64,000 nt of DNA from an uncultured Gammaproteobacteria bacterium (GTDB taxonomy: Bacteria > Pseudomonadota > Gammaproteobacteria > CAKMZV01): the NCBI GenBank assembly GCA_929200535.1, contig CAKMZV010000001.1:45470-109469 (forward strand). The letters run 5' to 3'. Numbering within the stretch: position 1 is the first letter of the stretch; every line of letters starts with the position of its first letter. The position numbers and the translations under genes are program-made. The notes below the pieces were generated by a model. The model ran no database searches. It was not told the DNA's origin and was given only the letters and a program-made list of their open reading frames with translations. This document shows, piece by piece, positions 345 to 60,070 of this stretch.

Positions 345-3300
345 TCATCCGGCAAGTAGTTCGGCGTTGCCACCTGAGGCGGTGGTATCAACGCAGATGT
401 GGCGTTCGACCCAGAGGTATGGGGCAAAATCTTTGGTGCTTATGAAGGGGAGGATTTCGCCTTCTCGCATTGATAGTGCTTGGCGATAGGCTTTTGCTTT
501 TTCATCTTCTTTGCCCCAGTAAACTATTCCTGCAAAATCTTGTTTTGTGAGTAGGTCGATGGCTGTTAGTTCGAGCATAATTTCAGCGGTACAGCCTTCT
601 TTTTCGGCAATTTTTGCTTGGGCTTCGGCGTCTTCTATGCTCGGACCAAGGCAGAGAATTTTTCCTCTTGGTTGTATTGACCAGCTGTTGCTTTCTCCCG
701 TTGGACCCGGCATATTTTGTTGTTTTTGTATTGCGGACATATCGGCATCTTTATAAAATCGATGTAGGTAAAGTGGACCACCTGCTTTGGGTCCTGTGCC
801 TGATAAGCCTCTGCCACCGAATGGTTGAGAGCCGACTATCGCACCTATTTGATTGCGGTTAATGTAGATATTTCCAGCTTTGACATTTTCACAAACGTAT
901 TCTACTTTGTCATCAATACGACTGTGAAGCCCAAAGGTTAGTCCGTATCCTGTGTTGTTTATGGAGTCCACTACTTGATTGAGTTGGTCTGATTTATAAG
1001 GGATTAGATGGAGTACGGGACCAAAAATTTCTTTTTCCAATTCACTGATATTTTCAAGTTCAATCACCGTTGGCGGTACGTACCAGCCTTTGCTTGGGCT
1101 TTTGGTTTGTTTTAAAACCTTTCCTTTTTTGCGGCATTGTTCAATCCAGTTTTCTATGCCTTTTTTGGCTGTTTCATCAATGACTGGTCCAATATCGTTG
1201 GCGATGTCCCAAGGGTCGCCTATCAGTAGTGAGTCCATCGCACCAAATAGCATTTTTACAACTTTATCCCATATTTCTTGTTGAATAAAGAGAACTCGGC
1301 ACGCAGAACAGCGTTGCCCAGCCGATTGAAAGGAGGATATAACAATATCTCGCACGGCTTGTTCGGGCAGTGCGGTGCTGTCAATAATCATCGCATTTAA
1401 TCCTCCGGTCTCGGCAATAAGCACCGCATCGGTTGGTAATGAGGTGGCTATGTTGCGATTGATTGATTGGGCGGTTTGAGTTGAGCCAGTAAAGCAAATG
1501 CCTGCTACTTTATTATTGCTGGTAAGAGCATTTCCGACTTCATTGCCAGCTCCTAATATCAGTTGCAACGAAGGTAGAGGAACGCCTGCTTGATGAAGCC
1601 AATTTATCGCTCGTGATGCCATAATCGAGGTCGCTTCCGCAGGCTTTGCTAATACGCCATTGCCTGCCGATAATGCGGCGGCTATCTGCCCTGTAAAAAT
1701 CGCAAGTGGGAAATTCCACGGCGAAATACACACAAAAATCCCACGAGCTTGTGCTGTTTGCTTTTGTGCCTCATCCGCGTAATAACGTAGAAAATCAACG
1801 GCTTCTCGTAATTCTGCTATCGCATCTTGCAAGGTTTTACCTGCCTCACGTGTTAGAATGCTGATAATCTCACCAAAATTATCCTCATATATATCTGCTG
1901 CCTTGCACAAAATTTTGGCACGTTCTTTAACATCCGCTTCCCATAGAGAGGCAGATAAAACCGCATTTTCGCAATCCTCTTTATTTGCCCATCTAACTTG
2001 ACCCACTTTTTCATTGGTGGCTGGGTTGATGGTGTCTTTAAGTTCTGTGCTTTTTATTTGGTTGACTGTAATTGGTTCGATTTGCCAGTTGGTTTCTTTA
2101 AATAAATCTCGCGCTTCTTTAAGTTCGTTAAGATCAGTGACGTCGAATAAGTCCCAACCCTGTGAGTTTTTACGTGGAAAAAATAGGGCTTTGGGCATCT
2201 GAATTCTGGAGCCAAGTTCTTTATTCCATATTTCATAGGGGTCTGCTGCGACTTCAATGGCTGGTGTGTCTTTATCTAAAATTTGATTGACAAAGCTTGA
2301 GTTTGCTCCGTTCTCTAAGAGACGACGAACCAGATAGGCAAGTAAATCTTCATGTACACCAACAGGGGCATAGATTCGACAATTTAAATCTGCTTCTTCT
2401 CGCACGACATCATAGAGCGTTTCTCCCATACCATGTAAGCGTTGAAATTCATAACCCGTAAATTCACCAGCAATGGCTTTAACCATCGCAATGGTATGCG
2501 CATTATGCGTTGCGAATTGCGGATAAATCACATCGCTACAAGCGAATAGATGGGCAGCATTTTCGATATAAGAAATATCTGTTGCTGGTTTGGATGAGAA
2601 TACCGGAAATCCTTCAAGCCCCTCAACTTGAGCGAGTTTAATTTCAGTGTCCCAATACGCCCCTTTCACAAGACGAACCGTTACCCGACGATTGAGTGAT
2701 TTTGCTAAGTTGTAAAACCAATCAATCACATATTTCGCTCGTTTGCCATACGCTTGCACGACAATCCCAAAACCATCCCAATTTTCAAGTGAACTATCTG
2801 AGAGCACTTTTTCAATGATGTCCATTGAAAGTTCTAAACGAGCAGCTTCTTCTGCATCAATGTTCAAGCCAATGTTTGCTTTCTTTGCCATTTGTGAGAG
2901 TAGCAACACGCGCGAAACTAAGCTATTCATCACTCTATCTTTTTGAGTAAGTTCATAACGCTCAAAGAGTGCGGAAAGTTTGATTGAGATACCTGGGTTT
3001 TCAACTAATTTTGAACTTTTGGCTTGTTTTTCTATGGCTTGGATTGCATCTGCATAGGCATTGAAAAACTCAAGGGCATCATCAGAGGTTTGGGCAGCTT
3101 CACCAAGCATATCATAGGAATAGGTGTAGCCATTTTTACGCTGACCCGCACCATTTTTAATGGCTTCTTTAATGCTTTGCCCCAATACAAATTGTGCCCC
3201 TAATTCACGCATAGCACGTTTAACTGCCCCACGAATCATCGGCTCACCCAAGCGTTTTATCATACCGTGAAGAATGGTTGAAAGCTGGGATTTCTCATCA

Positions 3301-3686
3301 AGCACTTTACCGGTCAATAACAATGCCCAAGTTGAAGCGTTCACTAATGGCGAACTCGAACGCCCCAAATGAGACGCCCAATTTGAAGGGGCAATTTTAT
3401 CCTCAATAAGCGCATCCATCGTCCCAGCATCCGGCACACGAAGCAACGCCTCCGCAAGACACATCAAAGAAACCCCCTCAGCATTAGAAAGCCCATACTC
3501 TGCCATAAAAATATCCATCAGCCCGGTCGCCTTACGCCCCCGAATATTCTCAACCCAAGCCACAGCATCCCTCTGTGCTTTATCTCGCAAATCTAAACTA
3601 ACTCTACCATCCGCCTGCAACATTGCAATCACAGAACTATCATCTGCCAAAGCATCTTCTCTCATCTTTGCTCGTATATCTTTCAT
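345..3686 (-). CDS. putA: Bifunctional proline dehydrogenase / delta-1-pyrroline-5-carboxylate dehydrogenase PutA (short form lacking N-terminal DNA-binding domain)
   Basis: 1113-aa ORF with proline dehydrogenase TIM-barrel region followed by aldehyde dehydrogenase domain (FTGST, catalytic Cys context ...GQRCSA...), C-terminal PutA-type tail. Confidence 0.9.
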   Translation of the reverse strand: MKDIRAKMREDALADDSSVIAMLQADGRVSLDLRDKAQRDAVAWVENIRGRKATGLMDIFMAEYGLSNAEGVSLMCLAEALLRVPDAGTMDALIEDKIAPSNWASHLGRSSSPLVNASTWALLLTGKVLDEKSQLSTILHGMIKRLGEPMIRGAVKRAMRELGAQFVLGQSIKEAIKNGAGQRKNGYTYSYDMLGEAAQTSDDALEFFNAYADAIQAIEKQAKSSKLVENPGISIKLSALFERYELTQKDRVMNSLVSRVLLLSQMAKKANIGLNIDAEEAARLELSMDIIEKVLSDSSLENWDGFGIVVQAYGKRAKYVIDWFYNLAKSLNRRVTVRLVKGAYWDTEIKLAQVEGLEGFPVFSSKPATDISYIENAAHLFACSDVIYPQFATHNAHTIAMVKAIAGEFTGYEFQRLHGMGETLYDVVREEADLNCRIYAPVGVHEDLLAYLVRRLLENGANSSFVNQILDKDTPAIEVAADPYEIWNKELGSRIQMPKALFFPRKNSQGWDLFDVTDLNELKEARDLFKETNWQIEPITVNQIKSTELKDTINPATNEKVGQVRWANKEDCENAVLSASLWEADVKERAKILCKAADIYEDNFGEIISILTREAGKTLQDAIAELREAVDFLRYYADEAQKQTAQARGIFVCISPWNFPLAIFTGQIAAALSAGNGVLAKPAEATSIMASRAINWLHQAGVPLPSLQLILGAGNEVGNALTSNNKVAGICFTGSTQTAQSINRNIATSLPTDAVLIAETGGLNAMIIDSTALPEQAVRDIVISSFQSAGQRCSACRVLFIQQEIWDKVVKMLFGAMDSLLIGDPWDIANDIGPVIDETAKKGIENWIEQCRKKGKVLKQTKSPSKGWYVPPTVIELENISELEKEIFGPVLHLIPYKSDQLNQVVDSINNTGYGLTFGLHSRIDDKVEYVCENVKAGNIYINRNQIGAIVGSQPFGGRGLSGTGPKAGGPLYLHRFYKDADMSAIQKQQNMPGPTGESNSWSIQPRGKILCLGPSIEDAEAQAKIAEKEGCTAEIMLELTAIDLLTKQDFAGIVYWGKEDEKAKAYRQALSMREGEILPFISTKDFAPYLWVERHICVDTTASGGNAELLAG

Positions 3687-4038
3687 TACTTTTATATTGT
3701 TTTAGGCAGTTTTATGCTCTGTAGATTAACTGAAATATATATTATATTCCCTTTGAAAATAAAGACCTTTTGCAAATAAGGGATTTAACGACTTATCCAG
3801 CTTTAAGATTGCAAACAAAATGAGAGCCAATCATCAATGAAAACATAGCAAAACAGACCACGAGCCTCAGTCCCGAAGCTATTATGAGGTTACAGGTATT
3901 GAATAATAAGACGGTGAGGTACTTTGGGGAAATTTGGAGGGAGTAAAAATCTAAATCTGTCTATAAAAGCTAATTTCAAAATACTTACTACTTATATCAG
4001 TAAAATGGTAGTCTAACCACCACCACCCAAAAAATTCC

Positions 4039-5754
4039 TTATTTTTTCCACTCTTTTACAATATTGTCAAAATCTACATTTTTCCACTGCTCTTTCCAAA
4101 TTTTTAGATACTCAATATCGTTAGAAGAAGGCTTGGGGCTGCATTCATCAATTTTGATAATTGAAGGCATGATGATTGATTCTCCAATAAGCAAGGCCTC
4201 TCCTGACTGCATAGAAGGCATTGAATCTGTCAAATTCCCTAGAGTATCAGGCAAGAGCCTTTTTACATAGTTTTGGTCATCTGGATTTGTAAGTCTCATG
4301 GCAATAAAATTGTTACATTGAGAAAAAATTGTTTCTGAAATTTCGGAAGGTCTTTGACTTACAATACCCAAAGTGACTCCATATTTTCTTCCTTCTTTAG
4401 CAATTCTTTCAATTGCCATTTTGGATGCCCTATATCTTACTAAATCGCTTTTTGGTACATATTTATGGGCTTCTTCATAAATCAAAACAAGGGGAGTTTC
4501 GCAATCCTTTGACTTTTCATCTAAAAGTTTTTTATAAAAATATCCATATTCAAAAAGAATTCTAGAAATCAACGAAACGGTGATACTTAAAACTTCAAAA
4601 GGGATTCCAGATAAATCCACTACTGTGATATTTGATTTGGAGTCTTGGTATCCTAAAAACTGCTTCAAAACATCTTCAACAGTCATATTTTCAACATTCT
4701 CAAACAAGAATTTGAGCCTTGGGTTGTGCCTTGTGTTCTCTAATCTTAAAACAAATCTTTCGAAATCTCCCGTGTATGGACCATTTACATAATTTGAATC
4801 AACTTTATCAAATTCAAGCTCTTCTTCAAAGTATTTCGTCAATCTATCATGAATAATCTCCCCTGTTTTTGTTGTTGGAGTTCTATTATTCTTTTTATTT
4901 ACAAATTCATTATTAATATTCTTTATATATTTAATCACTCCATCAATACTAAATTTTAAGGGTGAGTCAAAATAGATTTTATTTTGATCCTGTTCCGAAT
5001 TTAATTTTTTCTTATTTTCAGTGACTGCATATCTAAATTGTGAAATTTGATTATGAGAGTTGCTTTCATTGCTCTCAATAAATAAGTCTCCCAATTCATC
5101 ACTATCAAATAACCAGTATGGGATTTTAATATCTGCACTTATATGATTGGCTGTAGGAAAAGCCTCTTTATACTCACCATGAATATCAAATAGAACAATA
5201 TGAGAATTATTTAATCCATCGTATTCTCCATTTTTTGAGCTTATAGCTTCCTGTAAAATTTTTGCTACAGTGTGAGATTTTCCTGACCCTGTTGACCCAA
5301 CAATTGCAAAATGTTTGTTAAAAAATTTATCCCCGTTTACAGGCACATTAATTCTTTCATCTTGTGCTAATTTAGAAAAACAAAATTTTTCCTTATCTTT
5401 TATACTAGTTTGATAAATTTTATCAATATCATCATGTTTTGCAGGTTGGACACTCGTTGGAGGAATCGTTAAAGAATCCCCACCCCTTGTAAATTTTTCT
5501 CCAATAATTGTTCCCAAAGGATTTGCTTCAATAATGTATTTTCTTTTCCCATCCTCGTTTACTTCTATCAAGTAGCTTTCAATTATTGCAATGAGTTTAC
5601 AGTTTTTATCATCAGAAATTTCAAGGTATGAGCCAACTTTTAATTCCTCTAATTGTTCATCACAAGATTTAAATGCATCAAGATTGTCCACAGATATTTT
5701 TACTTTGTTAGGATAAACTGCAATAACTTCAGCTAATTTTGTTTCTTTTGTCAT
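4039..5754 (-). CDS. HerA/FtsK-superfamily ATPase (DUF87/COG0433-type), candidate anti-phage defence ATPase
   Basis: 571 aa. Walker A HFAIVGSTGSGKSHTVAKIL, Walker B-like PLVLIYEEAHKYVP, C-terminal GVTLGIVSQRPSEISETIFSQCNNFIAMRLTNPDDQ block typical of HerA/DUF87. Low-GC gene, second gene of a 2-gene operon (11-nt gap to upstream ORF), adjacent to tRNA-Leu. Confidence 0.8.
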   Translation of the reverse strand: MTKETKLAEVIAVYPNKVKISVDNLDAFKSCDEQLEELKVGSYLEISDDKNCKLIAIIESYLIEVNEDGKRKYIIEANPLGTIIGEKFTRGGDSLTIPPTSVQPAKHDDIDKIYQTSIKDKEKFCFSKLAQDERINVPVNGDKFFNKHFAIVGSTGSGKSHTVAKILQEAISSKNGEYDGLNNSHIVLFDIHGEYKEAFPTANHISADIKIPYWLFDSDELGDLFIESNESNSHNQISQFRYAVTENKKKLNSEQDQNKIYFDSPLKFSIDGVIKYIKNINNEFVNKKNNRTPTTKTGEIIHDRLTKYFEEELEFDKVDSNYVNGPYTGDFERFVLRLENTRHNPRLKFLFENVENMTVEDVLKQFLGYQDSKSNITVVDLSGIPFEVLSITVSLISRILFEYGYFYKKLLDEKSKDCETPLVLIYEEAHKYVPKSDLVRYRASKMAIERIAKEGRKYGVTLGIVSQRPSEISETIFSQCNNFIAMRLTNPDDQNYVKRLLPDTLGNLTDSMPSMQSGEALLIGESIIMPSIIKIDECSPKPSSNDIEYLKIWKEQWKNVDFDNIVKEWKK

Positions 5755-5765
5755 AATTTTTTAGG

Positions 5766-6938
5766 TTAAAGAATAGATAAAATATCAGATAAATTTTGAA
5801 TCTGAATTTTTATATTTTTATTATCAGACTCTATTTTAAGAGAAGTGTTTATGAAAAATTGATAAATTTCCTTTGTTTTTCCAAAATTTTCTGCAATCAT
5901 TTCTAAAAAATTATCCTCTGTATTAAGAAATTTTAAACATATACCGTTGTCTTTTGTTGAGGGCTCTTTTAGAGACTTAGAAGAAAAAACGGCATTTAAA
6001 AAATCATGCCCATCCTTTAATAAATGTCCTTCTTCATTTAAAGCTTGTTTTGTTGCTTGCAAATTTTCGGGTGTAATATTTGAAAGATAAATAAAAGGAG
6101 CTCCAGATTTTATTGCTCTATTTGCAGAGCAATAAAATTTATTTTTTATGCCTAAAATAGTCGTTTTTATTTGCTCTAATGCTTCGTTTTCTTGCAATTC
6201 AACCCAAATGAACCTCTCGAAATCATCTATATTTCTCCATGTAAAGTATTTTTTTTTGATAAGGGAAAAATATTCTTCATCCTTTAAAAACTCTCTATAA
6301 GCAGAGTAAAAAATACAACTTTTATGGTTACTAATAATATTTGTTAATTCTGATTTTGAACTTTTTCTTTCTTGGATATTTGTGGTTTGATTATTCGTAA
6401 TTTTTCTAAAAAGATGATCTAAGATTATTCCGTGAGCAAATACTGCATCTTCATCAGAAGAATAAGAAAACTCTGTTTTTATTTTTTCAATTACACTTTC
6501 AAAATGCTCATCAAAATTCTTTGAAAAATTAAAAGTAAAAGCTGAAAGAAAGCTGTTTTTTAGAGATTCATCAAAGTCATTGTTTCCTAAAATTGTATTT
6601 AATTCATCTAAACTTAAATTTTTAACACCTTCTTCTTGATCGCCAAAATAAGCATAAAGATGGTATTTTTTTGCTTGGTCTTTTTGGAAAAGTTCAATTA
6701 ATTGAATTATAGGCTTTTTTACAGATGAAGGGTAGTATGTTGCTTGTTCTTTATACTTAACCTGAATAACCTCATCGTCAAAATTGATATCTTGCTTTTG
6801 TTCAAAAGAAATTTCTGATTCAGGATTTTCGAGTATCTCTAAAATAGTTTTGTCCATCTGATAAACAAAACCTTTTATCGCATAATACCCACCATTCTCT
6901 GTTTTTATTTCTTTAACCATAAGCTTAAAATTTTGCAA
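5766..6938 (-). CDS. HerA-associated partner protein; possible DUF4297/Cap4-like (PD-(D/E)xK) nuclease effector, family uncertain
   Basis: 390-aa ORF immediately upstream of the HerA-like gene on the same strand. N-terminal GGYYAIKGFVYQ motif and acidic patch INFDDEVIQVKYK; no Sir2 GAGxS Rossmann motif seen. Very AT-rich. Confidence 0.55.
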   Translation of the reverse strand: MQNFKLMVKEIKTENGGYYAIKGFVYQMDKTILEILENPESEISFEQKQDINFDDEVIQVKYKEQATYYPSSVKKPIIQLIELFQKDQAKKYHLYAYFGDQEEGVKNLSLDELNTILGNNDFDESLKNSFLSAFTFNFSKNFDEHFESVIEKIKTEFSYSSDEDAVFAHGIILDHLFRKITNNQTTNIQERKSSKSELTNIISNHKSCIFYSAYREFLKDEEYFSLIKKKYFTWRNIDDFERFIWVELQENEALEQIKTTILGIKNKFYCSANRAIKSGAPFIYLSNITPENLQATKQALNEEGHLLKDGHDFLNAVFSSKSLKEPSTKDNGICLKFLNTEDNFLEMIAENFGKTKEIYQFFINTSLKIESDNKNIKIQIQNLSDILSIL

Positions 6939-7352
6939 ATACTCTACTCATAAGTTTTATAAAATCAACATAATATCATCCTGAATTAATGAACCTTTCA
7001 TTCATTCTACAACAAATAGTTTTCACAGGTTTTAATTAACTATTTTCAGAAGGTAGAAATAAGGACATTATCGAAGCTTAAATAAAACTCGAATATACAG
7101 TAGCAAGGTTGCAAGTTTGTAATGAATAGTTAAAAACTGTTCGTCGTCTTCACTTGCTATCTTTCCAAGGGTCAACCCTTAGAAACCTATGAGGGGGATT
7201 TTCATAAAATCACCCTTCAAACCCTCGTAATGAGAGTAAACAAAAGCTATCGTTTTTGACTCTGCCCAGAGGAGTTAGAAGATTTTGAGCTTTCGCCACG
7301 TACATCCTACATCTCACCCTGACGCTTTATAAAAGGTTTTTCATTATAGCTA

Positions 7353-7439
7353 TGGTACCAGAGGTCGGACTCGAACCGACACGCTTTTAAGGGCGGGGGA
7401 TTTTGAATCCCCTGTGTCTACCAATTCCACCACTCTGGC
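7353..7439 (-). tRNA. leuX: tRNA-Leu (anticodon CAA), leuX-like
   Basis: Reverse complement GCCAGAGTGGTGGAATTGGTAGACACAGGGGATTCAAAATCCCCCGCCCTTAAAAGCGTGTCGGTTCGAGTCCGACCTCTGGTACCA; cloverleaf with anticodon loop TTCAAAA, long variable arm, GGTTCGAGTCC T-arm, CCA end. Near-identical architecture to E. coli leuX. Confidence 0.85.
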
Positions 7440-7746
7440 AAATGCGTGATTTTTTATAAATAGATATTCATAAATAGATAGGTAGGTAATTAACTCTATC
7501 CAATAGGAAATTTTACCACAATAAAATTTACGTGTTCGTAATCGCTTCTACACATCTTCTATACATTAGCAACCTTTACATCAATAAGCGCGAGCCTTTA
7601 TAATATTTAATCCACAGTGCTTTGTGATGGTACAATTAAAAGGCGGATCAAAATTAAATGGCTGAAGAATGTTTTCTTATGTAAGGCATCTTTGGAATGC
7701 AGTTTTTGTTTTCGTCTCAAAAATAATTGAAAAAGTCTTCGCTATT

Positions 7747-27968: not shown

Positions 27969-29579
27969 TTAGTTTAGACTCGCTCCCATTACTCGTTCAA
28001 CTTCTTTGTGATCGGTGAGTTTGTTATTGACCGCATCGTTAGCGATTTTTTGCAGGCTTTTGTATTTGTGACTGCTAAAAACTTTGGATAGTTTTTGTTG
28101 GTCAAAAATAAGATGTTCCATAATCGCAAAACGACCATAATATCCACTTTGATTACATTTCTGACAACCTGTTCCGTAACAATCTGTACAAAGTTTTCTC
28201 AATAACCTTTGTGCCATTATGGCGAGAGTTTGGGAGTAAAAAGCAGCACTCGATTCTAAAAGATTTTTCATTCGGTTTGGAATATCTTTGATATAAGCCG
28301 CATGGATGGTCGCAAGAACAAGGTGTCCCGTTAAGGCTGCCTTAATTGCCAATTCAGCACTTTCACTATCACGAATTTCACCAATGAGGAGAATATCTGG
28401 ATCTTGTCGTAGTAGTGAGCGAATGCCTTGTGCAAAATCTAAGCCTAATTCTGGACGCACGTTGGTTTGTCGAATATCGGGCACAATATGTTCAACTGGG
28501 TCTTCTAATGTAGCAACATTTAATTTATTTAGTTGAAGCGTTTTTAATAGAGCATAGAGCGTGGTTGTTTTACCACTACCAGTGGGACCGCTAATTAAAA
28601 TAAGCCCGGAAGGTTGTTTGATAAGTGCTTTGAGTTTGGTGTTTAAATTTTGATCAAATCCTAAATTAGGTAGGGCAACTATGGATTTATGGCTATTGAG
28701 ACGCAATACAATAGATTCACCATGAATGGAGGGTAAAGAAGATAAACGAAAATCATAGTCGTTTCCTCTGAGACGAATAAAAAATGAGCCATCTTGGGGG
28801 AGGTGATTTTCTGTAATGTCAATATTGGAAAGAACTTTTAAGCGAATTTTAACGGAATTCCAAATATCTAAGTTTAGTTTTCTTTTTTCAATCAAAACAC
28901 CATCCACACGTAAACGCTGTTGGGTGAAGTAGGGGTTGCTATCAAAATGAATGTCCGATGCTCGTTGTTGCAGTGCTTCTAATAAAAATCCTTCGACCAA
29001 TTTGATAATAATATGGTCCGGAGAGACAATTTGATTTGTTTGAGTGAGTGGTGAGGAGCAAAGTTGTGCAATAAGTGGTTCAACTTCATCGGCGTGTGTT
29101 AATTGATAGTCAATTGCTTCACTAACTCGCATATTTTTGCAAAAATAGGGGTGAATAACCCAAACTCCCTTAAATAGTTCCTCCGCAATTTTTACTTTAT
29201 CAATTAGATAAGGTTGTTCCATTGCAACACAAAGCATATTGCCATCTATTTTGAAGGGTAGCATTGCATTTTCTATCATTTGCTCAACAGAGCTTAGTTT
29301 GAGTATGCTGGAATCGATGTTAATGTTTATTAAATCGATTGAGGGAATGCCAAAATGAGTTAGCAGGAAATTTTCAACTTTATCTAAGTCAATTAGTTGG
29401 GCTTGATGTAAAAAACGAATGGGGTCAGTATTATTTTGTTGTATTTCACGCATTGCTAAATTTTTAGCATCATCATTTAAAATATTATTTTCATACATTT
29501 TGTCAAGTAAACTAATAGGCACTTGCTGTGCCGAATTTGTTTCTTTAGAAGAAGAAAAAAATTTTATCATTAGAGTCAA
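27969..29579 (-). CDS. Type II secretion / type IV pilus assembly ATPase (GspE/PilB family) with N-terminal T2SSE_N domain
   Basis: 536 aa; Walker A ISGPTGSGKTTTLYA, Asp box, His box, C-terminal tetracysteine (CTDCYGTGCQKCNQSG). Confidence 0.85.
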   Translation of the reverse strand: MTLMIKFFSSSKETNSAQQVPISLLDKMYENNILNDDAKNLAMREIQQNNTDPIRFLHQAQLIDLDKVENFLLTHFGIPSIDLININIDSSILKLSSVEQMIENAMLPFKIDGNMLCVAMEQPYLIDKVKIAEELFKGVWVIHPYFCKNMRVSEAIDYQLTHADEVEPLIAQLCSSPLTQTNQIVSPDHIIIKLVEGFLLEALQQRASDIHFDSNPYFTQQRLRVDGVLIEKRKLNLDIWNSVKIRLKVLSNIDITENHLPQDGSFFIRLRGNDYDFRLSSLPSIHGESIVLRLNSHKSIVALPNLGFDQNLNTKLKALIKQPSGLILISGPTGSGKTTTLYALLKTLQLNKLNVATLEDPVEHIVPDIRQTNVRPELGLDFAQGIRSLLRQDPDILLIGEIRDSESAELAIKAALTGHLVLATIHAAYIKDIPNRMKNLLESSAAFYSQTLAIMAQRLLRKLCTDCYGTGCQKCNQSGYYGRFAIMEHLIFDQQKLSKVFSSHKYKSLQKIANDAVNNKLTDHKEVERVMGASLN

Positions 29580-29857
29580 AAAAGGTGCATAAAAAATAGG
29601 GTTTAAAAGCCTTGAAATGTTATAATTATAAAAGTCTGATTATATATCAGAAAGGAAGCCATTAGGGTATGGACAAATAACAAAAGACATAAAAAAATCA
29701 TTGTCTTTTTTAAGTTGACGCCAGATTTTCCATAAACAAGCGTCTTTATATTTGTCTGTCTTAGAAGTAAGAATAAAAAAACGTTTACTACCAAAGCCAC
29801 TTAAAAGGCGTTTTTGGTAGTCAATACATCATTAAAAAAATACTAACAACTTTAAAT

Positions 29858-30541
29858 ATGGATTTAGTAACAATGATATTGCAAGCAAGTATAGCTGTTC
29901 AGCTGGTCATGCTATTGCTGGTAATTATGTCTGTGTATGTTTGGATTTTAGTGTTTGCAAAGTTATGGCAAATACGAGGCTTGTATAAAAAATCTAAAGC
30001 ATTTAAACATAGGTTTAATACGAGTACAGATTTATCTGAACTATACCATGCACTTACGGCACAAATGCAAGATTCAAAGTTGCAAAAAAAAGTGTCTTCT
30101 TTGGAGCAAATTTTTATTGTTGGGTTTAAGGAGTATGTTCGACAAAATAAAACACAACATAACGATGTTAACGCTTCTATAAAGCTAATTCAAAATGAAA
30201 TGCGACAAGTTTATGATCAGCAGATGGATCTCATAGAGGAGCGCGGCTCAAATTTAGCAACTATAGGGTCTGCTGCACCTTATATCGGATTATTTGGTAC
30301 CGTCTTAGGCGTTATTAACGCATTTCAAGGGCTTGGCAAGGTGCAACATGCAACGCTTGCTTTGGTCGCACCAGGTATTTCTGAGGCACTCGTTGCGACA
30401 GCAATGGGGTTGTTTGTCGCTATTCCTGCCGTGATGAGTTATAACCGTTTGCAGTCCACAACTCAGAGACTATCACATTATTTTGAAGATTTTATGGGGA
30501 GTTTTTCACGCTTAATAGAAAGGCAATTGAGAGAAAGATAA
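29858..30541 (+). CDS. tolQ: Tol-Pal system protein TolQ
   Basis: 227 aa MotA/TolQ/ExbB family, 3 TM; first gene of tolQRAB-pal-cpoB. Confidence 0.85.
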
Positions 30542-56896: not shown

Positions 56897-57559
56897 CTAA
56901 TCTTCTCTTAATTCGTGAAAGACCGCACCAAGTATCAGTTTGACAACTTCGTTACGTTTATTTTTATATTCTTGTTTAGATAAACGCTTATTTTTATTAA
57001 GAACAGTGATTTGATATTCAAAATCCGCATAATGCTGGGTTGTTGCCCAAATCATATAAAGCAAAGCATTGGCATCAATATCTTTGATAATACCCTCTTG
57101 CTTCCATTTATTGATCACTCCAACACGTAAGTCAACCCATTCATTAAAGCTACTGGGGATTTTTATAAAGGTTTTTTTAGATACTCTGCCACTCACAAGA
57201 ATAAAATGTGCCCAGATTTTTGACGCATGAGGATATTCACGAGAAAAATCCATTTTTTCTTCTATGTAGCTCTTGAGTATCATATAAGGGTCTCCAACAA
57301 GGTTAAACATTTTTCCTTCCTGTAGCCAATCATCAAGAATGGTTTCAATAACTATTTGATATAACTCTGCCTTCGTTTGCACATAGTAAAGAACCGTTGA
57401 TTTAGGTAATTTTGCTTCTTCGGCAATCATACTCATCGTCGCCCCTTTATATCCATTTAAAGCAAAAATTTTCTCAGCAGCTTTATATATTTTTTTGCTT
57501 CGTATTTTACGTTTTTTAAATCGTTCAATCGTCATTTTTACGCTAAGAAATTCAGTCAA
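56897..57559 (-). CDS. TetR-family transcriptional regulator (RutR-like)
   Basis: 220 aa; N-terminal TetR HTH (AAEKIFALNGYKGATMSMIAEEAKLPKSTVLYY), flanks pyrimidine catabolic genes. Confidence 0.75.
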   Translation of the reverse strand: MTEFLSVKMTIERFKKRKIRSKKIYKAAEKIFALNGYKGATMSMIAEEAKLPKSTVLYYVQTKAELYQIVIETILDDWLQEGKMFNLVGDPYMILKSYIEEKMDFSREYPHASKIWAHFILVSGRVSKKTFIKIPSSFNEWVDLRVGVINKWKQEGIIKDIDANALLYMIWATTQHYADFEYQITVLNKNKRLSKQEYKNKRNEVVKLILGAVFHELRED

Positions 57560-57606
57560 TAGTAATTGCAGTCAAAGGAGTGCTGATTTTGTAACAAACT
57601 ACACTT

Positions 57607-57776
57607 TGAGACCTTTGCATAAAAGTATGGCAAAAGAAAAAAGATAAAAAATCGTTCTGATTGAGGCGTGAAATGAAGCTAATACATCCGTCTTCGCAAG
57701 TTTTATAACGAAAATTAGGGCAATTTTTTGCTTTTTTATTTGTCATATCTTTTGTGCAAAGGTCTCTTACAGCGAA
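57607..57776 (-). mobile_element. MITE-like palindromic repeat, copy 8 (orientation A)
   Basis: tgagacctttgcataaaagtatggcaaaagaaaaaagataaaaaatcgttctgattgaggcgtgaaatgaagctaatacatccgtcttcgcaagttttataacgaaaattagggcaattttttgcttttttatttgtcatatcttttgtgcaaaggtctc. Confidence 0.85.
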
Positions 57777-58032
57777 TCAATCCCTTTTTAGATAATGTAT
57801 TGGTGAAATAACAAATCAAAAATTTAGAAAAAGTTCTTTCGGCAACCATTCGTGTATGAATTAGAACCTAAATCACATCAAAAGGCATTCCTACAAAGAG
57901 AAAAACTAACGTAAGTATTTCCCATCAATAAACCTTAACTGTTAATTTAAATCTAAAGCACTAACATAGTTTAAAGTCAAGATATGATTTATTGCAAAAT
58001 AAATGACTCTCTGACCCCAACTATTTTAGCGG

Positions 58033-58176
58033 TTACTTTTTTGGAGGAGGGGGAGGGGGTGGTGGTGATGGACGTTGAGAGGTGGTTGGCGGATTTACCC
58101 CATCTGCAACAGTTCTCCCAAAATTATTACTACCATTTGAGCTTGGTGGTGGTGGATTTGATGCTTTCTTTGACAT
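58033..58176 (-). CDS. Unannotated 47-aa proline-rich microprotein (MSKKASNPPPPSSNGSNNFGRTVADGVNPPTTSQRPSPPPPPPPPKK)
   Basis: Own translation of minus strand; ATG preceded by AGGAAGG RBS 7 nt upstream, immediately after stop of 58188-58757 gene (coupled). Below 60-aa ORF-track cutoff. Confidence 0.35.
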   Translation of the reverse strand: MSKKASNPPPPSSNGSNNFGRTVADGVNPPTTSQRPSPPPPPPPPKK

Positions 58177-58187
58177 ATATAACCTTC

Positions 58188-58757
58188 CTATTTTTTTAGT
58201 TTTAAGAACTCTACTAATTTTACATCAGAACTATCAATCAAGATATTCTCAACATTTTTTAATGCAATTTCTTTATTATCATCATCAATCCAAGAAGAAT
58301 CCGAGAGTAAAAAATGCCCATTATTGGGTTCTGTAGGCCACTCCATTGGCCAACCTAAAATTCTACGACCATCTTTTAAATGAATTACTATATAAGTAAC
58401 GCGTTCAGAAAAAGCACTAAACCATTCAGAGGCATATGATGTTTCTTTTGTAATTTTTAATTTCCTTAGAATTTTATGGAATTTATCATTATTTGTAAAA
58501 TACGCTAAAAACAACCCTAATATAATGGCAATAATTAAAGAAAAAATTAATTCAAATTTTTCGATATTGATTGCCGAAAAATAAAAAAGAAGAAATAAAA
58601 CACTTTGAATAATGACAGTAAAAATTAATGCTTGAATTACCCTTTCAAATTGAGATTGTTTAGGGTACGAGGTTAAGGCATGAAATATCCATGCAGAAAT
58701 AAAACCTGGTAACAAAAAATGCAGAGTTGCGATTAACTCTGTTGACAAATTTTCCAT
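58188..58757 (-). CDS. Hypothetical membrane protein (3 N-terminal TM helices plus about 90-aa soluble C-terminal domain)
   Basis: 189-aa ORF, AT-rich, no recognisable motif. Confidence 0.5.
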   Translation of the reverse strand: MENLSTELIATLHFLLPGFISAWIFHALTSYPKQSQFERVIQALIFTVIIQSVLFLLFYFSAINIEKFELIFSLIIAIILGLFLAYFTNNDKFHKILRKLKITKETSYASEWFSAFSERVTYIVIHLKDGRRILGWPMEWPTEPNNGHFLLSDSSWIDDDNKEIALKNVENILIDSSDVKLVEFLKLKK

Positions 58758-58867
58758 GATGAATCTATTTTAGTAACTAATAACAACTAAACTCAGCAAA
58801 TAATTGAGGTCAAAATGTAATTTATTTTGTAACAAACTGCTCTCTAATTCTGATTAATTATATGGCA

Positions 58868-60070
58868 TTAAACACCATAAAAACGCTTTAGCCTTAGGGC
58901 ATTGAGCTTGATAAACCCTTCGGCATCTTTTTGATTATAGGCTCCGCCATCGTCTTCAAATGAGGCAATGTTACTGTCAAATAGGCTGTTTTCTGATTTT
59001 CTACCGAGAATACTAACCCCTCCTTTGAAGAGTTCTAAGCTGACTTCCCCAGATACATTTTGTTGTGTGTGATCGATTAGTGCTTGTAAGGCTTCTCTTT
59101 CTGGGCTCCACCAATATCCGTTATAAATTATTTCTGCGTATTTTGGCATTAGGCTATCTTTTAGATGAGCAACTTCGCGGTCTAAGGTGATCGATTCTAT
59201 TGCCCGATGAGCTTTTAACAATACGCTCCCTGCTGGCGTTTCATAACAGCCACGGGATTTCATACCTACATAGCGGTTTTCCACGATATCCGAACGCCCT
59301 ATGCCATGCTTGCCGGCGATTTGGTTGAGGGTTAGCATTAGTTTTTCACCATTCATTTTTTCGCCGTTGAGAGCAATAGGGTCGCCTTGGGAAAAACTGA
59401 TTTTTATCGTTTCAGGTGCTGAGGGGGCATCTTGAGGCGAGACGGTCCAACGCCACATATCTTTTTCAGCCACTGTGTCGGTATCTTCAAGAACTCCGCC
59501 TTCATAGGAGATATGCAATAAATTTGCATCCATCGAATACGGTGATTTTTTGCCTTTATCATAATCAACTGGGATATTGTGTTGCTTGGCGTAGGACATT
59601 AATTTTTCACGAGAGTTTAATTCCCATTCACGCCATGGAGCAATCACTTGAATTTGTGGCATTAGGGCATACGCCCCTAATTCAAAGCGTACTTGGTCAT
59701 TACCTTTGCCAGTGGCTCCGTGGACAATCGCATCGGCTCCAGTTTGTTGGGCAATTTCAACCAATCGCTTGGCAATAAGTGGGCGGGCAATGGAGGTGCC
59801 AAGTAAGTATTCGCCCTCATAAACCGCATTGCAACGAAACATTGGAAAAACATAGTTTTCAGCAAATTCATTTTTTAAATCTTCTATGTAAATTTGTTCA
59901 ACGCCCATTTGCTCAGCTTTACGACGAGCTGGCTCTAATTCTTCACCTTGCCCTATATCGGCAGTAAAGGTGATCACCTCGCATTGGTATTCTTGTTGTA
60001 GCCAGCGGAGGATGATTGAGGTGTCTAAACCTCCAGAATACGCCAACACGGCTTTTTTTATTTTTTGCAT
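58868..60070 (-). CDS. argG: Argininosuccinate synthase
   Basis: 400 aa; [11 protein letters not shown]-loop, type I ArgG. Confidence 0.9.

What the first reader, a model, noticed from the sequence alone, without database searches (positions are those of the whole stretch)
3687..7439. Low-GC two-gene HerA-ATPase module beside leuX-type tRNA-Leu(CAA): candidate anti-phage defence islet
Seen in sequence: a HerA/DUF87 ATPase (4039-5754) and an upstream 390-aa partner (5766-6938) sit together on the minus strand, 11 nt apart, so they look translationally coupled. The whole 3.6-kb segment between putA and the tRNA is much more AT-rich than its flanks and has about 350-400 bp of non-coding DNA on each side. 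The tRNA-Leu(CAA) at 7353-7439 has its 3' end pointing at the islet, as expected at a tRNA integration site. Established knowledge: tRNA-Leu(CAA) (leuX) is a classic island insertion hotspot, and HerA paired with a small effector (Sir2-HerA, DUF4297-HerA) is a recognised anti-phage architecture. Inference: horizontally acquired defence module. Neither the partner's family nor the island borders are clear, so this is the best candidate in the window for a new or poorly described variant.
Basis: partly seen in the sequence, partly recalled or inferred. Interest (0 to 1): 0.78.

Follow-up and report, generated by a model that had tools for sequence, protein, structure and literature searches.

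The report
Known DUF4297–HerA anti-phage gene pair
The two AT-rich genes between putA and tRNA-Leu are an intact copy of the already characterised DUF4297–HerA anti-phage system, sitting in a slot that closely related strains leave empty or fill with a different defence-like gene, so it is a genuine but ordinary defence islet.

Summary
Two co-oriented minus-strand genes lie 11 nt apart: herA at 4039-5754 and its partner at 5766-6920. They occupy the lowest-GC stretch of the window (30.2% against 37.8%), and that stretch ends exactly at the 3' end of tRNA-Leu(CAA).

The partner's family can now be named. It is a divergent DUF4297 (Cap4-like PD-(D/E)xK nuclease) protein. Pfam does not detect it. 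The PADLOC DUF4297 profile does (1.7e-50), and so does the solved E. coli DUF4297 (8.6e-25, full length). A confident AlphaFold model has solved DUF4297 chains as its top 17 PDB matches. The nuclease residues (D44/Q53/K55) and the HerA ATPase residues (K159, E427/E428, R456/K457) are all conserved.

Nearly identical strains (flanks 95-99.7% identical) have either an empty site or a single 889-aa Ppl-like ATPase gene in the same slot. This shows recent gain or replacement. There is no integrase and no att-type repeat, so exchange through the flanking DNA is the more likely route.

Verdict: this is a new member of a known system, first described by Gao et al. (2020) and solved structurally in 2024-25. 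It is not a new variant. Interest is low to moderate.

The parts
4039..5754 (-). herA: 571-aa FtsK/HerA-superfamily hexameric ATPase of the DUF4297-associated anti-phage clade. Walker A is GSTGSGKS with K159, Walker B is E427/E428, and the arginine finger is R456/K457.
   Evidence: DUF87 6e-35, HerA_C; PDLC02188 1.1e-252; NF042944 HerA_antiphage_2, 841.1 bits against a cut-off of 850; 8xau 8.6e-185; 52% identity; residue mapping.
5755..5765 (-). 11-nt AT-rich spacer (cctaaaaaatt) between the partner's stop and the herA start. Nearly the same linker is found in the closest cassettes.
5766..6920 (-). DUF4297-family partner, 384 aa from the ATG at 6920. It has an N-terminal Cap4-like PD-(D/E)xK nuclease domain (E40, D44, Q53, K55, E58) and a C-terminal domain matching the HerA-docking CTD of solved complexes.
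   Evidence: PDLC02187 1.7e-50; NF042945, 197.8 bits against a cut-off of 300; 8xav_G 8.6e-25, residues 14-383; invariant Q21 E40 D44 Q53 K55; pLDDT 90.2; top 17 PDB matches are all DUF4297 chains; CTD TM 0.87-0.88, rmsd 2.2-2.6 A.
6921..7034 (-). Upstream non-coding region conserved with the closest cassette in an unrelated contig (L005). It presumably carries the promoter and 5' leader of the operon, but no sigma-70 consensus match was found.
7035..7326 (.). Strain-specific non-coding DNA (about 39% GC) with no match in the sister strains or in related cassettes. Its function is unknown.
   Evidence: no credible Rfam match; no integrase or transposase remnant.
7327..7352 (.). 26-nt tRNA-proximal end shared with the alternative (Ppl-like) islet of sister strains and absent from the empty site.
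7353..7439 (-). tRNA-Leu(CAA). Its 3' end is the exact right-hand boundary of the variable segment.
3678..3939 (.). putA-proximal arm shared with the Ppl-like islet (L013) and absent from the empty site. It includes the first three codons of putA (3678-3686) and the putA upstream region.
3866..3946 (+). Conserved stretch downstream of herA, shared with L005 and L013. Its substitution pattern looks like a relic of a coding sequence (LSPEAIMRLQVLNNKTVRYF...). It marks the left end of the DNA shared with the L005 cassette.
   Evidence: (10 differences in 60 nt, 8 at codon position 3, one amino-acid change).
345..3686 (-). putA, the core-gene flank. Its extreme 5' end differs between strains.

Best explanation
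The segment carries a complete two-gene DUF4297-HerA anti-phage system.

Mechanism, inferred from homology to the characterised E. coli and Bacillus systems:
- The partner protein is a Cap4-like PD-(D/E)xK nuclease domain joined to an oligomerising C-terminal domain. Two hexameric layers of it (12 copies) stack on a HerA hexamer.
- Assembly turns HerA from a split spiral into a planar ring that can hydrolyse ATP. It also brings the upper-layer nuclease domains together as clamp-shaped dimers.
- dsDNA is threaded by the ATPase and cut without sequence specificity. Both phage and host DNA are destroyed, which is abortive infection.
- The in vivo trigger is unknown even for the model systems.

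Shown here: the gene order, family membership by profile, sequence and predicted fold, conservation of every residue mutated in the model systems, and presence/absence polymorphism among near-identical strains.

Inferred only: the assembly, the enzymatic activities and the phage protection of this particular copy.

How it arrived: the pair sits in a hypervariable slot between putA and tRNA-Leu(CAA) of an uncultured Pseudomonadota lineage. It was most likely gained or exchanged by recombination in the conserved flanks, not by an integrase.
For: System identity:
- HerA matches PADLOC PDLC02188 at 1.1e-252 and the partner matches PADLOC DUF4297 PDLC02187 at 1.7e-50.
- NCBIfam best hits are HerA_antiphage_2 and DUF4297_antiphage.
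- PDB sequence search: HerA matches 8xau at 8.6e-185, and the partner matches 8xav_G at 8.6e-25 over residues 14-383.
- An AlphaFold2 model of the partner (pLDDT 90.2, pTM 0.84) has DUF4297 chains from 8zgi, 9c1m, 8zit, 8ziq, 8xav and others as its 17 best PDB matches. The CTD-only chains align at TM 0.87-0.88 and rmsd 2.2-2.6 A.

Catalytic residues:
- E. coli D40/Q53/K55 are the nuclease-dead triple mutant of An et al. 2024 (PMC11291478). They map to D44/Q53/K55 here and are invariant across 51 homologues.
- HerA K157, E426/E427 and R455/K456 (PMC11291478) map to K159, E427/E428 and R456/K457.

Obligate pairing: in all 10 other cassette contexts read, the partner homologue is followed by a DUF87/HerA gene 2-14 nt downstream.

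Acquisition:
- The islet has the lowest GC in the window.
- L015 and L014 have an empty site: 138 nt between the putA ATG and the tRNA 3' end.
- L013, L017 and L018 carry one 889-aa AAA_21 gene that matches PADLOC Ppl at 6.6e-32.

Mechanism: taken from PMC11291478, bioRxiv 10.1101/2024.10.24.620088 and the review PMC12198126.
Against: - The partner is only 26% identical to the characterised E. coli DUF4297.
- The partner gets no Pfam PF14130 hit; only 1 of 51 clade members does, and weakly. It scores 198 bits against the 300-bit NCBIfam equivalog cut-off.
- HerA misses its NCBIfam cut-off by 9 bits.
- Nothing here tests expression, complex formation or phage restriction.
- No promoter consensus was found upstream of the partner.
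- Residue K61 of the Bacillus triad D41/E59/K61 is not conserved here, nor in the E. coli protein, so the exact catalytic geometry differs between published accounts.
Confidence: 0.88

Rival explanations
1. The pair belongs to the DUF4297-HerA family but this Pfam-invisible clade works differently. It would be a second-line degrader coupled to restriction-modification, loading on DNA ends made by restriction enzymes, and not a self-contained abortive-infection module.
For: - In several contexts the partner gene starts 11-12 nt after an R-M gene in the same orientation. These are type I hsdR (L008/L009), an MmeI-like type IIG pair (L019) and AlwI endonuclease + methyltransferase (L020).
- In the source contig a type I R-M locus lies about 4.5 kb away, beyond putA.
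- HerA-type motors act on DNA ends in archaeal HerA-NurA (established knowledge).
Against: - In this window the pair stands alone, with 432 nt of upstream non-coding DNA and no R-M gene in the operon.
- Other contexts (L005, L006, L021, L024, L026) have no R-M gene directly upstream.
- Defence genes cluster together in general.
- The E. coli system protects without a cognate R-M system (PMC11291478).
Confidence: 0.07
2. The islet was inserted by a site-specific integrase at the tRNA-Leu gene, as in a classic tRNA-targeting genomic island, and the integrase and att repeat were later lost.
For: - The right-hand boundary of the variable segment falls exactly at the tRNA 3' end.
- The two different cargos share short ends: 262 nt at the putA side and 26 nt at the tRNA side.
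- One close cassette homologue sits next to a tyrosine integrase (L006).
Against: - No integrase ORF or remnant was found.
- No copy of the tRNA 3' end is present in the islet: the best local alignment score is 21, against a shuffle mean of 18.7 and maximum of 23.
- The left junction lies inside the putA coding sequence.
- The 138 nt of the empty site are replaced, not interrupted.
Confidence: 0.12
3. The genes are a silent or decaying relic, or serve a housekeeping DNA-repair role like archaeal HerA-NurA, and are not an active defence system.
For: No promoter consensus was detected. The system is toxic when over-expressed in E. coli (PMC11291478), so silencing is conceivable.
Against: - Both ORFs are full length, with every catalytic residue intact.
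- The partner is not NurA.
- The archaeal repair-type HerA profiles score far lower than the anti-phage one: 132-146 bits against 841.
- The pair is strain-variable, which does not fit a housekeeping function.
Confidence: 0.04

Closest known systems
E. coli DUF4297-HerA system (WP_016239654.1/WP_016239655.1; PDB 8XAU-8XAY, 8ZGI; An et al. 2024, PMC11291478; first reported by Gao et al. 2020)
   Same: - Same gene order, with the nuclease gene first and herA second.
- HerA is 52% identical over its full length, including the C-terminal hook region.
- The partner aligns end to end and keeps E36/D40/Q53/K55/E58.
- The predicted partner fold matches both domains.
   Different: - The partner is only 26% identical and falls below the Pfam and NCBIfam thresholds.
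- The host is an uncultured Pseudomonadota lineage.
- The HerA helical-bundle insertion region (about residues 237-382) is the variable part among cassettes.
Bacillus sp. HMH5848 HerA-DUF system (PDB 9C1M and related entries; Rish et al., bioRxiv 10.1101/2024.10.24.620088)
   Same: Same architecture. The HerA match is 6.5e-143. The partner's N-terminal nuclease domain matches at 4.1e-10, with D41 and E59 conserved.
   Different: Only the N-terminal roughly 110 residues of the partner align by sequence. K61 of the proposed D41/E59/K61 triad is an alanine here.
SIR2-HerA anti-phage system
   Same: It uses a HerA hexamer as a platform that activates a stacked effector. An example sits in the neighbouring R-M island of a sister strain (L017 17352-19973).
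   Different: Its effector is a SIR2 NADase, not a nuclease. That HerA is only 32% identical to the one in the window.
CBASS effector Cap4 (PF14130 nuclease + SAVED domain)
   Same: The nuclease domain of the partner has the same PD-(D/E)xK fold class (literature; weak Foldseek matches to 6wan/6wam).
   Different: There is no SAVED domain, no cyclase gene and no cyclic-oligonucleotide signalling. Activation is by HerA assembly.
Archaeal HerA-NurA end-resection machine
   Same: A HerA hexameric DNA translocase paired with a nuclease.
   Different: The partner is not NurA. The repair-type HerA profiles score 132-146 bits against 841 bits for the anti-phage type.

Membership tests
DUF4297-HerA anti-phage system | Two adjacent co-oriented genes, with the nuclease partner immediately upstream of herA | tested here: met
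   Partner at 5766-6920 and herA at 4039-5754, both on the minus strand, 11 nt apart. The same order is seen in all 10 related cassettes read.
DUF4297-HerA anti-phage system | HerA of the DUF4297-associated clade, full length (HAS barrel, RecA-like core, helical bundle, C-terminal hook) | tested here: met
   PADLOC PDLC02188 838 bits over residues 3-571. 8xau match at 8.6e-185 over residues 8-571, 52% identity. The NCBIfam equivalog NF042944 scores 841.1 bits, 9 bits under its 850 cut-off.
DUF4297-HerA anti-phage system | HerA ATPase residues needed for defence (E. coli K157; E426/E427; R455/K456) | tested here: met
   K159, E427/E428 and R456/K457 are present. Residue roles are from PMC11291478.
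DUF4297-HerA anti-phage system | Partner N-terminal Cap4-like PD-(D/E)xK nuclease with the catalytic D...QxK (E. coli D40/Q53/K55) | tested here: met
   D44/Q53/K55 align to D40/Q53/K55 and are invariant in 51 homologues.
DUF4297-HerA anti-phage system | Partner C-terminal domain with the fold that stacks on the HerA HAS domain | tested here: met
   The AlphaFold2 model (pLDDT 90.2) matches the CTD-only chains 8xaw_Q and 8xav_M at TM 0.87-0.88 and rmsd 2.2-2.6 A. The top 17 PDB matches are all DUF4297 chains.
DUF4297-HerA anti-phage system | Recognition of the partner by curated DUF4297 sequence profiles | tested here: inconclusive
   PADLOC DUF4297 matches at 1.7e-50 over the full length. NCBIfam NF042945 gives 197.8 bits, below its 300 cut-off. 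Pfam PF14130 gives no hit, and only 1 of 51 clade members hits it, at E 0.009.
DUF4297-HerA anti-phage system | Assembly into a 12:6 complex of about 1 MDa that activates both enzymes | not testable with these tools
   Needs co-expression with SEC, mass photometry or cryo-EM, or a multimer structure prediction.
DUF4297-HerA anti-phage system | Protection against phage, with an abortive-infection phenotype | not testable with these tools
   Needs plaque and liquid-infection assays.
SIR2-HerA system | Partner carries a SIR2 NADase domain | tested here: not met
   The partner has no SIR2 hit in Pfam or PADLOC. The window HerA is only 32% identical to a SIR2-associated HerA.
Integrase-type tRNA-inserted genomic island | Tyrosine integrase next to the tRNA, and a direct repeat of the tRNA 3' end at the far border | tested here: not met
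   No integrase ORF or remnant. No tRNA-derived repeat.
Integrase-type tRNA-inserted genomic island | Presence/absence polymorphism with one junction at the tRNA 3' end | tested here: met
   Homology to the empty site resumes at window 7352/7353.
Variable defence slot between core genes (defence hotspot) | Same flanking core genes with different defence cargo, or none, in close relatives | tested here: met
   Three states were found: DUF4297-HerA (window), an 889-aa Ppl-like AAA_21 gene (L013/L017/L018) and empty (L014/L015). HflK is identical and the flanks are 95-99.7% identical.

The most novel reading that the evidence does not exclude
The partner belongs to a clade of roughly 120 protein clusters. 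The clade is scattered across bacteria and archaea, named only 'hypothetical protein' except for two distant members that UniRef labels DUF4297 domain-containing, and invisible to Pfam. It might be a functionally distinct branch of DUF4297-HerA that acts together with restriction-modification systems: several close relatives are fused into R-M operons with an 11-12 nt gap. In that reading it would degrade DNA from restriction-made ends and would not work as an autonomous abortive-infection device. Separately, the putA/tRNA-Leu slot, where short shared arms flank different cargos, might reflect a cassette-exchange route that needs no integrase.
Probability: 0.08. Interest if true: 0.5.

Novelty: new member of a known kind. 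Interest (0 to 1): 0.27.

Why it matters
- It adds an intact, divergent DUF4297-HerA pair from an uncultured Pseudomonadota lineage. Three alleles of the same slot (this pair, a Ppl-like gene, or nothing) occur among near-identical strains from one study, which is a clean natural example of defence-gene turnover.
- It shows that a whole clade of DUF4297 partners escapes Pfam and falls under NCBI's naming thresholds. Surveys based on those profiles will therefore under-count this system.
- It does not reveal a new mechanism.

Tried and rejected
Searches that found nothing useful:
- Scan of species-representative genomes with PutA: no relative.
- The same scan with PurA: only distant hits at 42-53% identity. 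Synteny therefore could not be compared at genus level. PurA homologues in named species reach at most 58% identity, so the host is only placed as an unassigned Pseudomonadota lineage.
- Direct and inverted repeat search and local alignment of the tRNA against the islet: no att-like repeat.
- tblastn with an integrase, an rve transposase and the Ppl-like protein against the islet: nothing.
- Alignment of the 156-nt segment spanning the empty site (the 138-nt intergenic DNA plus the first 18 nt of putA) against the islet: no similarity above shuffles. The islet replaces that DNA and does not interrupt it.
- Rfam on 3600-7500 at E <= 1: only the tRNA and a chance snoRNA match.
- Folding of the conserved element downstream of herA: no better than shuffles.
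- Back-translated pattern of that element: 0 hits in metagenome and viral contigs.
- Exact tRNA-Leu scan of metagenome contigs: 0 hits.
- tblastn of the partner against phage genomes: no match. Against plasmids: only canonical DUF4297 proteins at 23-27% identity.

Readings rejected:
- FtsK/TraD/T4SS coupling protein: only weak P-loop hits.
- HerA-NurA repair.
- SIR2-HerA.
- CBASS Cap4 effector.


Full report
**1. The observation**

The ORF list shows 4039-5754 (-) at 571 aa and 5766-6938 (-) at 390 aa. They lie between putA (345-3686, -) and tRNA-Leu(CAA) (7353-7439, -). Because the tRNA is on the minus strand, its 3' end faces the pair.

The partner probably starts at the ATG at 6920, giving 384 aa. 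The TTG at 6938 is only the mechanical ORF start. Three things support this:
- Gene callers on the source contig use 384 aa.
- The closest homologues are 383-388 aa.
- Homology to solved DUF4297 begins at residue 14.

The two genes are 11 nt apart. The non-coding flanks are 352 nt and 432 nt.

Composition:

| Segment | GC |
|---|---|
| Islet 3687-7352 | 30.2% |
| herA | 31.2% |
| Partner | 26.7% |
| Window mean | 37.8% (sd 2.2 points for equal-sized windows) |
| putA | 43.9% |
| hflK | 41.8% |

The islet is the lowest-GC stretch of its size in the window. GC3 is 0.23 in herA and 0.18 in the partner.

**2. What the proteins are**

*HerA.*
- Pfam DUF87 6e-35, plus HerA_C. Only P-loop-level hits to FtsK/TrwB.
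- PADLOC HerA PDLC02188, 838 bits, end to end.
- NCBIfam 'anti-phage-associated helicase HerA' NF042944, 841.1 bits, 9 bits below its cut-off. The archaeal repair-type HerA profiles give only 132-146 bits.
- PDB sequence search: 8.6e-185 to the E. coli DUF4297-associated HerA (8xau), covering residues 8-571, at 52% identity.

*The partner.*
- No Pfam hit.
- PADLOC DUF4297 PDLC02187, 1.7e-50, over the whole length.
- NCBIfam DUF4297_antiphage, 197.8 bits against a cut-off of 300.
- Solved E. coli DUF4297 (8xav_G), 8.6e-25 over residues 14-383, 26% identity.
- The N-terminal domains of two further solved DUF4297 proteins also match (9c1m at 4e-10, 8ziq at 5e-07).

*Predicted structure of the partner.* An AlphaFold2 model built on 51 homologues is confident (pLDDT 90.2, pTM 0.84). 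Its 17 best Foldseek matches in the PDB are all DUF4297 chains from DUF4297-HerA structures. Chains in which only the C-terminal domain was modelled superpose at TM 0.87-0.88 and rmsd 2.2-2.6 A. The whole-chain TM of about 0.5 probably reflects a different relative orientation of the two domains, which the literature describes as mobile.

**3. Functional residues**

An et al. 2024 (PMC11291478) used DUF4297 D40A/Q53A/K55A as the nuclease-dead mutant and HerA K157A as the ATPase-dead mutant. They describe E426/E427 and the trans-acting R455/K456 at the ATP site.
- By global alignment, the nuclease residues map to D44/Q53/K55 in the partner, along with E40 and E58.
- The ATPase residues map to K159, E427/E428 and R456/K457 in HerA.
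- In an alignment of 51 partner homologues with 26-81% identity to the window protein, Q21, E40, D44, Q53 and K55 are invariant and E58 is nearly so.
- Rish et al. (bioRxiv 10.1101/2024.10.24.620088) name D41/E59/K61 in the Bacillus protein. D and E are conserved here. K61 is not conserved here or in the E. coli protein.

**4. The partner clade**

The large protein database holds 119 clusters related to the partner. Nearly all are named 'hypothetical protein'. They are scattered over very different taxa: Methanoperedens, Methanosarcinales, Marinimicrobia, Magasanikbacteria, Calditrichota, Desulfosporosinus, Bacillus cereus group and Flavobacteriaceae. Only 1 of 51 gets even a weak Pfam PF14130 (Cap4_nuclease, formerly DUF4297) hit.

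In the 10 other cassette contexts I read, the partner gene is always followed by a DUF87/HerA gene 2-14 nt downstream. The neighbourhoods are mobile or defence-rich:
- IS transposases (L005).
- A tyrosine integrase and KfrA (L006).
- Type I R-M (L008/L009).
- An MmeI-like type IIG pair (L019).
- AlwI endonuclease with a methyltransferase (L020).
- An SbcCD-like pair (L023).
- smpB plus a reverse transcriptase (L024).

Between the window and the E. coli prototype, HerA is better conserved than the partner (52% against 26% identity). Among the closer cassettes the two diverge similarly. No phage genome carries the partner. Plasmids carry only canonical DUF4297 proteins at 23-27% identity.

**5. 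Is it horizontally acquired, and where are the borders?**

The window is part of a 123-kb metagenomic scaffold (ENA ERZ23492265, sample SAMEA3913368). Other assemblies encode the identical HflK protein, and BLAST against them defines the borders.

| Loci | State of the slot | Where homology to the window stops and resumes |
|---|---|---|
| L015 (JGI 3300034387) and L014 (SAMEA3913359) | Empty: 138 nt between the putA ATG and the tRNA 3' end | Runs up to 3677 (98.4% identity) and resumes at 7352 (99.7%) |
| L013/L017 (SAMEA3913369) and L018 (JGI 3300034734) | One 889-aa gene on the opposite strand (AAA_21; PADLOC Ppl 6.6e-32, partial) | Runs up to 3939 and resumes at 7327 |

So the right border is the tRNA 3' end itself. 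The left border lies inside the first codons of putA: the N-terminus is MKDIRAKM... here and METIKTIRVKM... in the empty-site strain.

The two different cargos share a 262-nt putA-side arm and a 26-nt tRNA-side arm that the empty site lacks. The 138 nt of the empty site have no counterpart in the islet.

There is no integrase, no transposase remnant and no copy of the tRNA 3' end.

The simplest reading is a hypervariable defence slot whose contents are exchanged by recombination in the conserved flanks. Integrase-mediated insertion followed by decay cannot be excluded. The JGI and ENA assemblies may derive from the same samples, so I count three alleles, not five strains.

**6. Extent of the transferable unit**

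- Homology to the more distant cassettes (L006, L008, L019, L020) stops at the gene ends, about window 4035-6921.
- Homology to the closest cassette (L005, 82% DNA identity) spans 3866 to about 7034. That adds about 115 nt upstream of the partner, presumably promoter and leader, and 173 nt downstream of herA.

**7. Host**

PurA is at most 58% identical to that of any named species. The best named hits are Gamma- and Betaproteobacteria, and unnamed metagenomic relatives reach 71-74%. Scans of species-representative genomes found no close relative. The gene order hflK-hflC-DUF2065-hisZ-purA fits, from my own knowledge, the Gamma/Betaproteobacteria.

**8. Mechanism**

This section is inferred by homology and none of it was tested here. 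According to An et al. 2024, Rish et al. and the review PMC12198126:
- Twelve DUF4297 molecules form two stacked rings on a HerA hexamer, giving a complex of about 1 MDa.
- Assembly flattens the HerA split spiral into a planar ring, positions the arginine finger and switches on the ATPase.
- Assembly also dimerises the upper-layer nuclease domains into an active clamp.
- The complex cuts dsDNA without sequence specificity.
- In vivo, ATPase activity is needed for DNA degradation, and infected cells lose both phage and host DNA (abortive infection).
- The trigger is unknown.

Every sequence feature these papers tie to function is present in the window copy.

**9. Comparison and novelty**

This is the DUF4297-HerA system first reported by Gao et al. 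2020 (cited in PMC11291478). Three groups have solved its structure.

The window copy is a new and divergent member. Its partner clade escapes Pfam and NCBI naming thresholds, but the architecture, the predicted folds and the catalytic residues are the same. I therefore rate it 'new member of a known kind', with low to moderate interest.

The population-level allele series at the putA/tRNA-Leu slot is a tidy illustration of defence turnover. The repeated placement of close relatives directly behind R-M genes is also worth noting. Neither is a new principle.

Noticed in passing
window 3866-3946 (+); L005 13022-12940; L013 6426-6505: A stretch downstream of herA is conserved with an unrelated contig that carries the closest cassette, and with the sister strain whose cargo is different. 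Of 10 differences in 60 nt, 8 fall at codon position 3 and only one changes an amino acid (LSPEAIMRLQVLNNKTV[R/G]YF). It looks like the relic of a plus-strand coding sequence carried along with the cassette. Homology to L005 starts sharply at 3866. There is no Rfam hit, no stable fold, and no hit in the pattern scans.
   Followed up: partly
L001 15450-21716 (source contig just beyond window position 1); L017 13382-22442: On the far side of putA lie a Lipase_3 gene and a type I R-M locus (hsdM, HTH gene, hsdS). In this strain hsdS is followed by a PADLOC candidate PDC-S06 / AAA_13 gene (981 bits). The sister strain instead has a SIR2-HerA pair between hsdS and hsdR (SIR2 319 bits, HerA 728 bits). 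The strain that lacks DUF4297-HerA at the tRNA slot thus carries the other HerA-based system nearby.
   Followed up: partly
L013 6649-9318 (same slot in a sister strain): The alternative cargo is a single 889-aa AAA_21 ATPase gene on the opposite strand. It gives a partial match to PADLOC Ppl (6.6e-32) and weak matches to AriA/Old/GajA-type ATPases. Its identity as Ppl is not established.
   Followed up: partly
L008 7194-11152; L009 5187-9145; L019 268-6031; L020 183-3970: Close homologues of the partner start 11-12 nt after the last gene of an R-M system in the same orientation (type I hsdR; an MmeI-like type IIG pair; AlwI endonuclease + N6_N4 methyltransferase). They look like part of the same operon.
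   Followed up: partly
window 3678-3686 and L015 6607-6624: The first codons of putA differ between strains (1113 aa MKDIRAKM... against 1116 aa METIKTIRVKM...). The variable segment therefore reaches into the putA coding sequence and replaces its whole upstream control region.
   Followed up: partly
window 7035-7326: About 290 nt of strain-specific non-coding DNA between the operon's conserved upstream region and the tRNA. It has higher GC (about 39%) than the genes. It has no homologue in any fetched locus, and no ORF there reaches 40 aa.
   Followed up: partly
window about 28750-30250 and about 57000-59250: These are the next-lowest GC patches of the window, at 31-33% in 1-kb windows. They were not examined.
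   Followed up: no
whole window: The host has no close relative among named species. PurA is at most 58% identical to that of named Gamma- and Betaproteobacteria, and scans of species-representative genomes found no close relative.
   Followed up: partly
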